Assembly: GCA_000002445.1 (NCBI GenBank)
Contig: CH464492.1
Span: 192,001-256,000, forward strand
Direction of reading: 5' to 3'
DNA: 64,000 bases
Origin: Trypanosoma brucei
Lineage: Eukaryota
Position numbers: made by a program
Part shown: positions 52,401-55,400 of the stretch, piece by piece
Numbering within the stretch: position 1 is the first letter of the stretch
How the letters are laid out: every line of letters begins with the position of its first letter

Positions 52401-55400
52401 TTTAGCGGCACATCACTGGCGCCTCCGTGTCCATAGCCGTTGGTTGCGTGGTTAACTAAAAGTCGGCATTTCCCCTTGTTTCCTGATGTCGCTGCCTGGA
52501 AGGCGTCGAGCCTTGCGTTGTCAGTCGCTATGTTGGCGTAGTCGCTGGCTGTGATCTTCGACGCCGTTCTGCTTGCTTTTGTCAGTGGTGCAGTTTCCAG
52601 CTTACATGGCTCGTTTCCTATGTTGCCCGCGCTATATGTAGCGCCTTTGTCTGCTGTGGTTCCTAGCAAGCGGCACCCATTGTTCGTGTTGTCTGAAATT
52701 GCCCCCATTATTTCCAGGCTTTCGTGTATACGGCCTCGTAAATACGTTGAATCTCGCGTCGCCGTGAGTATCTTAGACAACCCTTGTGCTTGCATCGCCT
52801 CGGCTCCTATGGCTGCCAGAGAAGCATAGTAAGCCGCAGTGATTTCGGCTGCTTCACCATCCTTGGTGCCCGATTTTATCTGGCTGTATATTCGGGCTCT
52901 GAGGCTCTGGATGGTGTGGGTGTTCGCCGTTGCCATCTCGTGGTCTAAGGTTTTGAACGCTTGATTAGCGATGTTTCCTAACTCAGTTGCTATCTTACAG
53001 ACCGGTTTCCACACGGTGGCCTTTAGACCGATGCATTCCGCAGCATAGGTCGTTATGGCCGCTGTCGTAACCGCTGCCGAAACTACCACTAGGGTCAGCG
53101 GGTGTTTCAGCATTTGGTTCTTAAGTGGTCGCTGCTGTTTAAGAAGCTATGCTATTTTTTGTCGATTTTTGCCGCTGGTTGTTTCGAGAAATTGAGTGAT
53201 GTTTCGATTTCAGCTTGTTCGTTGTCGTTAGTGTTAAGTTTGATAGTTATCGCCACCGCAGTCGGTTGTGTGTTTAGAGTTAAAATATAGCGTATTAGAC
53301 AGTAAGGTTAAAGTTGTCGAAGGCCTTTGTGTCTTGCTGTTTTTTCTACGGTTTTTTGTACCTGTTGCACTAGCTTTTTGCGTTGCGGTCTTTGCCAGGT
53401 CGCCACGTATTTGACAGTGTGGATATGTTTAGATTTGTTATGTCATCTACTAACCTTTTACACTGGGCCGGTTGTTTTGATTCGTTTGTTACATTGCAGG
53501 TATTTTATTTATTGCTGCGATGTAACCAAAAAGTGTCCCGTGTTCGATGCACTGCGTGAGGCCTCTTCGCTCTGCTGCTCAACAATAAGAGCCGGCACAT
53601 GATTAAAAAACTACAGTAGCCATTATCATCTCTGCAGTAGTATCTAGTCATATCTGCATAAAATATGCCGTTTGTTTGGTTTTTAATGAGTTTCCAGAGT
53701 TAAATCCCAATTCGTTTTCAAGTACGGCTTCTGGTGGTGCATCTAGTTCGGAAAAATCTTCTAAGTGTTTCATTCCTCTGTGTTTGCACGGAATTTCTGA
53801 GTATAGGCGAGGATTTGGTGCTTCTCTATTCATAGGAACTCCTTGTATATAAAACATAAATGCCCATGTTTCCTCCATTTAAACTAACTGATTTTATATT
53901 TTCTGCTGCTTATTTCTTTTTTAAAATTCATTCACACAGAAAACTACAAGTTTGATAAAATGCTACTTAGAAATGGTATATCTATGATAATTCCTTTCTT
54001 TTAACATCGAGTAAATCATATCACTAAAATAATCTTACTTATGACCTTATAAATCTTTATTTTAGACTTACTTTTCACTACTTCCACTTTTGTCATTCTA
54101 CAAAATGACAAAAAACTTACTTCTATGTAATACATTAGTCAATTTGCCTTCGTTTATGGACTTCTATTATTCACTTTTTCTTCACTAATTTTAAATTTAG
54201 TAACGTCTTAACTGCCTCTTGCTATTTACTATTCCGTCGCATTCCGCCGTTTGATTATTTTGTCAGCGATAGCACAGTTTGTTTGCACAATTATCACCAA
54301 AAACCCTCTTTCTCATTTCCCTCTACCCCTTCTTTGTTCGCTATGTTAAATACACTCACGTTCTTACATTTATGGGTAATAGAACTGCGAGAATATCTAC
54401 TCTATTCATCATTGTTGTTAGCAAAAGTTTTGCAACTATTTTTTCTATTTATCTCACCAAGCGTTGACTGAATTTCTTGTAGTTGTCTGTCGGTTCCCTT
54501 GCGCCCCTGGTTTGCTTTGACTACTCCTCTTTTGGTTTGCCGCTCGTTTTTTGTAACCACTCGCATTATACTATTCGTATATACACTCACCACACTCTCC
54601 TATCATCATCATTATCATTATTAAACACTAAATAATATACATAAAATAAAAAATAAACCAAATTATAATGACACTAATTTTACATATCCTGTTTTCTAAC
54701 CCTAACCCATACACTGCTTTGATAAAAAAATTCAATGTTTCAATTTTTCAATGGTTTCAAAAAAAAAGTGTTAAAATATATTAATTTTGGAAATTTCATG
54801 AAATTGATCAGAAATCCTTAGATAATTAATTATAGAAGCAAAACTACAAGCAAAAGAGGCGCCTTTTTAATCACAAAAGAATTTCTGCGTGTGGTGTTTG
54901 TAGTTTTACCATCTTTTTTAGCTTTTACTCCCTCTTTAGCCTTACACTCCCCATCTTTAATTTCACACCCATCATTTTTGTTGCATTTTTCTTTTTCAGA
55001 TTCTGCACTGCATTCTTTTGCTTTCGAATTCTCCTCGTCAGGTACGGTTGGTTTAGCTTCATTCTCTTTAGTCAATATTTCTTTCTCCCTTTGGCCAATC
55101 AAGTAACTCAAAGCTGCTTCTGCTGCTGGTGTGCCCGCCAGTTCTCCTATGGTGCCTTTTTCTGTGGTTGCTCCTGTGCCGTAAATTATTTTCTGCTTGT
55201 CTGCTGCGTTCCTGAATCGTTCGGTGAATTTAGTGTCGGTGTCACCAAAGACATTTTTGATTGAGTTGGCTAAGGAGGTTTTTGTTTCACTTTTGCTGAG
55301 GTCAGCCCTTTGCCATTCTGTGACAAGTAAGTTGTTGGCCAAGCTAAGAAAGCTTTCGTCGGCAGCTAGATCGTTTCCGTTCTTAATCTCTTTGCCTTGC

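What the first reader, a model, noticed from the sequence alone, without database searches (positions are those of the whole stretch)
54690..54830. Telomere hexamer relic 120 bp downstream of an internal VSG
GGGTTAGGGTTAG (in the VSG reading orientation) lies between the VSG 3'UTR 16-mer and the next 70-bp repeat. The chance of a 13-mer occurrence in 64 kb is about 0.002. This suggests that this VSG copy, including its 3' flank, was templated from a telomeric VSG, or that the locus was once a chromosome end.
Basis: seen in the sequence. Interest (0 to 1): 0.55.

Follow-up and report, generated by a model that had tools for sequence, protein, structure and literature searches.

The report
Short telomere-repeat patch in VSG spacer
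A real 13-base stretch of telomere repeat sits just downstream of a silent trypanosome coat-protein (VSG) gene, inside an otherwise ordinary, in-register spacer between genes, so it looks like a small scar of break repair rather than the remains of an old chromosome end.

Summary
GGGTTAGGGTTAG lies at 54696-54708 (- strand, VSG sense), 121 nt after the stop codon of a near-intact VSG pseudogene and 59 nt after its 16-mer. It lies 72 nt before a single 70-bp repeat. The window is a T. b. brucei TREU927 VSG array.

The run is not at a homology breakpoint. It lies inside a conserved ~86-nt inter-VSG spacer element, found 12 times in the window and 6 times in a T. equiperdum locus. Models built without the focal copy match both halves in register: the left 24 nt score +10 bits (p about 1.4e-4) and the right half has E = 1.8e-4. 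About 13 consensus columns are replaced by 9 nt (TAGGGTTAG). A native GGGT lies on the left and a possible TAG microhomology on the right. None of the other 17 copies carries the motif.

Two other telomere-repeat runs in the window lie in other contexts. Among the 11 period-6 repeats outside 70-bp repeats, three belong to the telomere class.

The best reading is a local break-repair patch written by telomerase or copied from telomeric DNA (confidence about 0.5). A former chromosome end, or a wholesale copy of a telomeric VSG flank, is less likely. Chance is not excluded. Interest is modest.

The parts
54696..54708 (-). Perfect telomere-repeat run GGGTTAGGGTTAG (2.17 units), with the G-rich strand in the VSG sense direction. 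The first GGGT coincides with the GGGT of the spacer consensus. The 9 nt TAGGGTTAG replace about 13 consensus columns.
54650..54732 (-). Focal copy of the conserved ~86-nt inter-VSG spacer element. The left half is 54732-54709 and the right half is 54692-54652. The telomere run lies between them at 'site A'.
   Evidence: Right half E=1.8e-4 with a model built without the focal copy. Left 24 nt score +10.0 bits in register only, reached by 1.4e-4 of window positions.
54768..54783 (-). VSG 3'UTR 16-mer variant TAATATATTTTAACAC (1 mismatch to TGATATATTTTAACAC).
54830..56335 (-). Full-length VSG pseudogene of about 500 codons, with a single in-frame TAA at 56257-56255. It is 80% identical to Lister 427 VSG 483.
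54560..54623 (-). Single 70-bp repeat that heads the next cassette. TRR tract 54623-54601, core GGAGAGTGTGGTGAGTGTAT 54600-54581.
51641..53113 (-). Next VSG downstream on the same strand. It shows that the focal VSG is internal to the array.
40950..40968 (+). Comparator ITS-2: TGGTTAGGGTTAGGGTTAC (17 perfect nt, 40951-40967). It lies 430 nt after a 12-copy 70-bp repeat array, inside a cassette leader. A T. equiperdum paralogue of that leader lacks the hexamers.
23718..23738 (-). Comparator ITS-1: GTGTTAGGGTTAGGGTTGGGG inside the RT motif of a degenerate non-LTR retroelement. It reads GSVLG-LGLG-PLPF, a 12-nt gain relative to the ingi sequence GTVLGPIMF.

Best explanation
The 13-mer is a short interstitial telomeric sequence written into an ordinary array spacer during repair of a local DNA break.

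Proposed steps:
1. The spacer broke at or near 'site A' of the conserved element.
2. The VSG-side end was trimmed back to the native ...TATGGGT.
3. That G-rich 3' end primed synthesis of about 9 nt of telomere repeat (TAGGGTTAG). The template was either telomerase (an aborted chromosome healing) or a telomeric or T2AG3-like DNA tract.
4. The extended end was rejoined to the other side of the same spacer at a TAG microhomology, with the loss of about 13 nt.

Shown here:
- The run is telomere-specific.
- It is unique among the homologous spacers examined.
- It is flanked in register by both halves of the spacer element.

Inferred: the break, the template and the rejoining step.

No function is proposed. 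With two G-runs and 13 bp, the run is probably too short to act as a telomere seed or a strong TRF site.
For: 1. Position. Both flanks belong to the conserved spacer element, and the models used exclude the focal copy.
   - The right half matches with E=1.8e-4, starting 4 nt after the run.
   - The left 24 nt score +10.0 bits only at the in-register offset. All 30 other offsets within 15 nt score negative. Only 1.4e-4 of window positions reach that score.
   - The distance from the 16-mer to site A is 59 nt. In other copies it ranges from 50 to 144 nt, median 76.5.
2. Derived state. None of the 17 other copies (11 in TREU927, 6 in T. equiperdum) has a telomeric run of 10 nt or more. Their similarity to (TTAGGG)n is no higher than in shuffles. 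The replaced columns are among the best conserved in the element: A in 15 of 17 copies at two columns.
3. A telomere-specific process acts in this region.
   - Three telomere-like loci are seen against 0.03 expected.
   - Of the 11 perfect period-6 runs of at least 13 nt that lie outside 70-bp repeats, three are the telomere class, one class among roughly 340.
   - The other two runs cannot be VSG-flank relics.
4. Seed. The native consensus reads TATGGGT exactly where the run begins.
   - G-rich or T2AG3-like ends seed de novo telomeres in T. brucei (PMC1807955).
   - In mammals, short ITSs were inserted at breaks by telomerase. This was helped by 1-5 nt of microhomology, and about half of the insertions came with flanking deletions (PMC2246262).
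5. The run is perfect although the surrounding spacer family is about 27% diverged, so the event is younger than the family.
Against: - No orthologous 'empty' site was available, so the pre-event sequence is inferred from paralogues that are about 27% diverged.
- Experimental end joining in T. brucei uses microhomologies of typically 5-20 bp and removes at least 81 bp in total. NHEJ has not been reported (PMC3045614). A rejoin with about 3 nt of microhomology and about 13 nt lost is atypical.
- The sample is small: 18 spacers, one 64-kb window and 21.5 kb of T. equiperdum. The T. equiperdum locus has no telomere-like runs at all.
- The G-strand orientation and the position just downstream of a VSG are also what a telomeric origin predicts.
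- A neutral simulation gives about 8e-5 per spacer. At that rate, about 0.1-0.2 such runs per genome could arise without any telomere involvement.
Confidence: 0.5

Rival explanations
1. Telomere relic in the first reader's sense. Either the VSG with its 3' flank was copied from a telomeric or minichromosomal VSG by a long conversion tract ending in the first hexamers, or the cassette was for some generations the end of a chromosome, healed at the GGGT of the spacer, and was later re-internalised.
For: - The G-strand reads in the VSG sense direction, as at expression sites.
- Telomeric VSGs carry T2AG3 tracts 200-1590 nt downstream (PMC2567434). The VSG221 site has a T2AG3-like tract about 200 nt downstream that seeds new telomeres (PMC1807955).
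- The motif is unique among 18 spacers.
- The stretch between the 16-mer and site A is the least typical of all copies: 12.6 bits against 21-66 bits. It lacks the TTTTTGATGAAAATGTGCAAATTAG box.
- One-sided MMEJ gene conversion is documented in T. brucei (PMC3045614).
Against: - Both halves of the array spacer flank the run in register and at normal spacing. A join between unrelated molecules would not restore the register.
- The 121 nt from the stop codon to the hexamers is below the 200-nt minimum seen in 17 expression-site clones (PMC2567434).
- Leave-one-out scoring shows that the stretch after the 16-mer is poorly conserved in true members too: -0.8 to 39.7 bits, against 2.7 for the focal copy. 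Its low score is therefore not evidence of a different origin.
- Only 9 nt are non-native, and there is no degenerate T2AG3 tail.
- Two other runs in the window need a different explanation anyway.
Confidence: 0.2
2. Chance. Ordinary substitutions, small indels or a 6-nt tandem duplication in a spacer whose consensus already holds GGGT and two TAGGGT motifs happened to produce a perfect 13-mer. No telomere or telomerase was involved.
For: - The consensus reads ...TATGGGTGTAAAGTAATAGGGTGATAGGGTAT....
- From a copy like 33183 (GGGTGTAGAGTAGTAG) only about three small events are needed (by inspection).
- The simulation gives 7.9e-5 per spacer for a run of at least 13 nt. That is about 17 times the composition-only rate and amounts to about 0.1-0.2 per genome.
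- Tandem hexamer duplications are common in the window: 24 runs.
Against: - The column-frequency model gives 8e-9 for this 13-mer at these columns, no better than composition alone.
- The expectation per window is about 1e-3.
- The telomere class is over-represented among period-6 runs outside 70-bp repeats: 3 of 11, where about 0.03 is expected.
- None of the 17 other copies has even a 10-mer.
Confidence: 0.12
3. A conserved, functional 3'-flank element, for example a binding site for a telomere protein, that belongs to the VSG cassette.
For: - A different telomere-like piece, TAGTTAGGGTTATA ('site B'), recurs about 45 nt further downstream in 7-8 of 18 spacers and in one more cassette.
- The spacer consensus holds two TAGGGT motifs.
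Against: - At the focal position, none of the 17 other copies carries the motif.
- Site B in the focal spacer is degenerate.
- There is no Rfam match.
- 13 bp with two G-runs cannot form a quadruplex and offers at most one or two Myb half-sites (inference).
Confidence: 0.03

Closest known systems
Short interstitial telomeric sequences inserted at double-strand breaks by telomerase (mammals; Nergadze et al. 2007, PMC2246262)
   Same: A few exact hexamers lie inside otherwise collinear sequence. Native nucleotides at the 5' junction are in register with the repeat. A small deletion of flanking sequence accompanies the insertion. The origin is distinct from microsatellite slippage.
   Different: The organism is a kinetoplastid in which NHEJ has not been reported (PMC3045614). 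The run is only 2.2 units long. The empty site is inferred from paralogues rather than an orthologue. Telomerase involvement is not shown.
[quoted passage not shown] 2007, PMC1807955)
   Same: Telomere-like hexamers lie a short distance downstream of a VSG, in the same orientation. This shows that T. brucei telomerase uses such G-rich sequence as a seed.
   Different: That tract is about 106 bp long, degenerate and telomere-proximal. This run is 13 bp, perfect, internal to an array, and embedded in a spacer shared by non-telomeric cassettes.
Subtelomeric ITSs at duplicon or repeat-unit boundaries, such as human subtelomeric blocks and yeast X-Y' and Y'-Y' junctions (from general knowledge, not checked here)
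   Same: Telomere repeats lie between tandem subtelomeric units that carry contingency or variable genes.
   Different: Those ITSs sit at homology breakpoints and are usually longer and degenerate. Here both flanks are one continuous element in register.
Canonical T. brucei VSG cassette (70-bp repeat, VSG, 3'UTR 16-mer)
   Same: The focal unit has all the cassette parts, and its spacer is a normal family member.
   Different: The telomere run is not part of the cassette consensus.

Membership tests
Short ITS inserted at a repaired break (telomerase-type) | A few exact telomere hexamers, not a long degenerate tract | tested here: met
   13/13 perfect match and 2.17 units. No degenerate extension at 18 nt with up to 3 mismatches, beyond GTAT on the left.
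Short ITS inserted at a repaired break (telomerase-type) | Flanks collinear with a copy that lacks the insert (an empty site) | tested here: met
   Met with paralogues only. Both halves of the spacer element are in register. None of the 17 other copies carries the run. The orthologous empty site was not obtainable.
Short ITS inserted at a repaired break (telomerase-type) | Native nucleotides at the 5' junction in register with the telomere repeat | tested here: met
   The consensus reads TATGGGT at columns 21-27. G occurs in 9-12 of 17 copies and T in 12 of 17.
Short ITS inserted at a repaired break (telomerase-type) | Dependence on telomerase | not testable with these tools
   This needs induced breaks in TERT-proficient and TERT-null cells.
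Relic of a chromosome end, or subtelomeric-type ITS at a block boundary | Homology to related units breaks at the repeat | tested here: not met
   Homology continues on both sides in register and at normal spacing.
Relic of a chromosome end, or subtelomeric-type ITS at a block boundary | G-strand points towards the chromosome end | not testable with these tools
   The position and orientation of the window in the chromosome are unknown. Only the agreement with the VSG sense direction is shown.
Relic of a chromosome end, or subtelomeric-type ITS at a block boundary | The same VSG and flank exist at a telomere | not tested
   The closest relative found is Lister 427 VSG 483 (80% identity), and no DNA context was available for it.
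Conserved VSG 3'-flank element | The same motif at the same position downstream of many VSGs | tested here: not met
   None of the 17 homologous spacers has it at site A. A different 10-mer, GTTAGGGTTA, recurs at site B.
T. brucei array VSG cassette | 70-bp repeat, VSG ORF, 3'UTR 16-mer, and further cassettes on both sides | tested here: met
   The TREU927 origin comes from a 100% match to P0003.
Functional telomere | A long terminal T2AG3 array at the end of the DNA molecule | tested here: not met
   The run is 13 nt long and has 54 kb of sequence on one side and 9 kb on the other.

The most novel reading that the evidence does not exclude
T. brucei VSG arrays are sprinkled with short scars written by telomerase or templated from telomeres. 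These scars mark past breaks in the silent archive. Each begins at a native G-rich seed, and each points in the sense direction of the local cassette (3 of 3 here). A genome-wide map of them would be a natural record of where the archive breaks and how often healing is attempted away from chromosome ends.
Probability: 0.35. Interest if true: 0.55.

Novelty: new member of a known kind. Interest (0 to 1): 0.3.

Why it matters
Breaks in subtelomeres drive VSG switching and diversification, but their natural positions in the silent arrays are not known. If short telomere-repeat patches are repair scars, they give a sequence-only readout of past breaks and of telomerase activity away from chromosome ends. 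They would do so in an organism where NHEJ has not been reported. For this single locus the consequence is small. The patch is too short to be expected to act as a telomere seed or a silencing element. It does not show that the VSG came from a telomere.

Tried and rejected
1. More T. brucei DNA could not be obtained.
   - The look-up of encoding contigs on four window proteins (five calls) and on P0003, which is identical to one of them, gave nothing.
   - Only one T. equiperdum locus was obtained.
   - The three protein searches returned VSGnome entries without contigs.
   - Scans of metagenome and prokaryote genome collections for the 70-bp repeat core gave 0 hits.
2. I tested whether site A of the spacer family is an ancient decayed telomere tract, and rejected it. 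The local alignment scores of the 17 other copies against (TTAGGG)n equal those of shuffles (11.5 against 11.1).
3. nhmmer with a short left-half model gave a non-significant hit for the focal copy (E=12). The long-left and mid models also scored it low. For a time this favoured a junction model. It was resolved in two ways. Leave-one-out scoring showed the region is weakly conserved in all copies. An ungapped in-register PWM test was significant.
4. The claim that ITS-2 is an in-register patch was only partly supported. The left block is strongly homologous (z=9.9), the 110 nt to the right are not (p=0.79), and homology resumes collinearly 270 nt further on.
5. Generic hexamer slippage was rejected as a sufficient cause.
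6. Rfam returned no family in the window. Pfam gave nothing for the VSG ORF.
7. Searches of the literature found no description of interstitial telomere repeats in T. brucei VSG arrays within the held library. Marcello & Barry 2007, Cross et al. 2014 and Wickstead et al. 2004 are not held.
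Full report
**Context.** The window is a subtelomeric VSG array of Trypanosoma brucei brucei TREU927. The ORF at 3903-5429 is 100% identical to a TREU927 VSG on a 286-kb contig. The window holds about a dozen VSG genes or fragments on both strands, one intact ingi element (ORFs 42393-45608 and 46106-47410) and one degenerate retroelement. Most units carry 70-bp repeats upstream and 16-mers downstream.

**Observation.** GGGTTAGGGTTAG occurs once, at 54696-54708 on the - strand.
- The VSG upstream of it runs from the ATG at 56335 to TAA at 54832-54830. It is full length, 80% identical to Lister 427 VSG 483, and carries a single in-frame TAA at 56257-56255.
- The 16-mer variant TAATATATTTTAACAC is at 54768-54783.
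- The run begins 121 nt after the stop codon and 59 nt after the 16-mer.
- A single 70-bp repeat (54623-54560) follows 72 nt later. The next VSG is at 51641-53113.

The description is therefore correct, including the orientation. A fixed 13-mer is expected about 0.001-0.002 times per window, and any telomeric register about 0.007 times. Shuffles gave 0.06 matches with up to 1 mismatch, against 5 observed at 3 loci.

**What surrounds it.** I aligned the inter-VSG spacers in VSG orientation. This revealed a conserved element of about 86 nt between the 16-mer and the first 70-bp repeat. A profile of the element finds it 12 times in the window and 6 times in the one outside locus I could obtain. 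That locus is T. equiperdum OVI, L001. The element is always on the VSG strand. Its consensus is AAAATTTGTATGATAGTGGCCTATGGGTGTAAAGTAATAGGGTGATAGGGTATAAAAAATGAGTGCTATTATAATTTTGTTTATTT. The focal copy reads AATTTTTTTATCAAAGCAGTGTAT-GGGTTAGGGTTAG-AAAACAGGATATGTAAAATTAGTGTCATTATAATTTGGTTTATTT.

All models below were built without the focal copy.
- The right half of the element matches the focal sequence from 4 nt after the run (54692-54652, E=1.8e-4).
- For the left side, nhmmer was not sensitive enough on this AT-rich stretch. Leave-one-out scoring showed that true members also score poorly there: -0.8 to 39.7 bits, against 2.7 for the focal copy.
- An ungapped position-weight test settled the matter. 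The 24 columns left of site A, modelled from the 17 other copies, score +10.0 bits on the 24 nt that directly abut the run. Every other offset within 15 nt scores negative. Only 1.4e-4 of all window positions reach 10 bits.
- The distance from the 16-mer to site A (59 nt) lies within the range of the other copies, which is 50-144 nt with a median of 76.5.

So the run sits inside one continuous, ordinary array spacer. About 13 consensus columns (GTAAAGTAATAGG) are replaced by 9 nt (TAGGGTTAG). The first GGGT of the 13-mer is the element's own GGGT. The final TAG may be native as well; compare copy 48209, which reads ...ATATAGAAATAGAGTAT.

**Is it a conserved flank motif?** No. None of the 17 other copies has a telomeric 10-mer in the element. 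Their best local alignments to (TTAGGG)n are no better than those of shuffles. The columns replaced in the focal copy are among the best conserved in the element, with A in 15 of 17 copies at two of them. The state in the focal copy is therefore derived. A different telomere-like piece, TAGTTAGGGTTATA, does recur about 45 nt further downstream, just before the triplet tract of the first 70-bp repeat. It is seen in 7-8 of 18 spacers and in one more cassette. In the focal spacer that site is degenerate.

**Is it chance?** With column frequencies from the family, the 13-mer has a probability of 8e-9 at these columns, no better than composition alone. Gapped mutational paths are shorter, because the consensus holds GGGT and two TAGGGT motifs. 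I therefore ran a neutral simulation from the consensus. It used substitutions to the observed divergence of about 27%, about 2.5 indels per element, and tandem duplications. It gives 7.9e-5 per spacer for a perfect run of at least 13 nt. That is about 1e-3 per window, but about 0.1-0.2 per genome with 1,000-2,000 spacers. Chance is unlikely but not negligible.

**A telomere-specific process in the region.** The window holds two more telomere-repeat runs.
- ITS-1 (23718-23738, -) lies in the RVT_1 domain of a degenerate retroelement (E=4e-8). It reads GSVLG-LGLG-PLPF, a 12-nt gain relative to the ingi sequence GTVLGPIMF.
- ITS-2 (40950-40968, +; 17 perfect nt) lies 430 nt after a 12-copy 70-bp repeat array, in a cassette leader. 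A second near-match, TAGGGTTGGGGTTA, lies at 40677. The homologue of this leader in T. equiperdum is collinear on both sides but lacks hexamers. The homology is strong on the left (z=9.9), absent for 270 nt on the right, and then resumes at the expected spacing.
- Neither run can be a VSG 3'-flank relic.
- Stringent telomere-like loci number 3 against 0.03 expected.
- Of 24 perfect period-6 runs of at least 13 nt, 13 belong to 70-bp repeats or their leader. Of the remaining 11, three are the telomere class, which is one class among roughly 340 (the class count is my arithmetic).
- Generic slippage therefore does not explain them.
- In all three cases the G-strand reads in the direction of the local cassette or element. 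With three cases this is only suggestive.

**Mechanism.** The most economical reading is a local repair patch. A break occurs in the spacer. The VSG-side end is trimmed to ...TATGGGT and extended by about 9 nt of telomere repeat, then rejoined to the other side with the loss of about 13 nt.
- The template may have been telomerase RNA (an aborted healing). It may instead have been telomeric or T2AG3-like DNA, as in a one-sided, microhomology-mediated conversion.
- T. brucei telomerase seeds new telomeres on G-rich or T2AG3-like ends (PMC1807955).
- In mammals, short ITSs were inserted at breaks. Microhomology of 1-5 nt favours this, and about half of the insertions came with flanking deletions (PMC2246262).
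- Against this reading, experimentally observed end joining in T. brucei uses microhomologies of 5-20 bp and total deletions of at least 81 bp, and NHEJ has not been reported (PMC3045614). The tidy rejoin inferred here is atypical.

The orientation fits. Expression-site VSGs have telomere repeats 200-1590 nt downstream (PMC2567434), and VSG221 has a T2AG3-like tract about 200 nt downstream (PMC1807955). However, a former chromosome end, or a copy of a telomeric flank joined to the next cassette, would not be expected to restore both halves of the spacer element in register. Only 9 nt are non-native, and the 121-nt distance is below the expression-site range. A transient broken end that began to be healed is in effect my best explanation. 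A long-lived end or a wholesale telomeric copy is less likely (about 0.2).

**Limits.** The pre-event sequence is inferred from paralogues. No orthologous locus, no telomeric VSG flank and no genome-wide census could be obtained with these tools. The held literature does not describe such runs in T. brucei arrays. Several key papers are not held.

**Verdict.** It is a new member of a known kind, the short interstitial telomeric sequence. Interest is modest (0.3). The lead worth following is the local excess of such patches.

Noticed in passing
window 39598-40524 (+), with 40677-40690 and 40950-40968 (+): There is a 12-copy tandem array of 70-bp repeats, whereas most units here have one or two. 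Within 430 nt it is followed by two telomere-like runs on the same strand, then by the conserved VSG-upstream region (41364-42321), which is interrupted by an ingi element. This looks more like the remains of an expression-site or telomere-proximal structure than the focal site does.
   Followed up: partly
window 23718-23738 (-): The telomere-like run GTGTTAGGGTTAGGGTTGGGG lies inside the reverse-transcriptase motif of a degenerate non-LTR retroelement (RVT_1, E=4e-8). It is an in-frame 12-nt gain (LGLG) next to what would have been a single native TTAGGG.
   Followed up: partly
12 sites in the window (for example 13588-13674 +, 51311-51397 -, 9576-9662 +) and 6 in L001: A conserved element of about 86 nt lies between the VSG 16-mer and the first 70-bp repeat, always in VSG orientation. 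It is shared by T. b. brucei TREU927 and T. equiperdum, and its consensus contains GGGT and two TAGGGT motifs. I found no description of it in the held literature.
   Followed up: partly
window 5606-5619 (+), 58190-58177 region (-); L001 3597-3610 (+): A recurrent telomere-like 14-mer, TAGTTAGGGTTATA ('site B'), lies immediately 5' of the triplet tract of the first 70-bp repeat. It is present with 0-3 mismatches in 7-8 of 18 spacers.
   Followed up: partly
window 37842-38710 (-) and 41423-42271 (+): Inverted copies (76% identity over 879 nt) of the conserved VSG-upstream region flank the 70-bp repeat array. This marks a divergent strand switch inside the VSG array. VSGs are on the + strand at 0-17 kb and on the - strand at 26-38 kb and 48-64 kb.
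   Followed up: no
window 56255-56257 (-): The focal VSG is disabled by a single in-frame TAA at codon 27, where Lister 427 VSG 483 has Lys. It is otherwise full length, with a signal peptide and a GPI signal.
   Followed up: yes
window 31175-31834 (-): An ORF fragment with weak similarity to galactosyltransferases (PF01762, E=7.5e-4, below the curated cut-off) lies among the VSGs. It is probably a glycosyltransferase pseudogene.
   Followed up: no
window 54692-54708 (-), 40951-40976 (+); L001 about 11700-11716 (+): In three places a telomere-like run is followed by the same A-rich tail: GGGTTAGAAAAC, GGGTTACAGAAAAAC and AGGGTTAGAAAAAC. In L001 this corresponds to the native right half of the spacer element (consensus TAGGGTATAAAAAAT). 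I could not tell whether the resemblance is more than coincidence.
   Followed up: no
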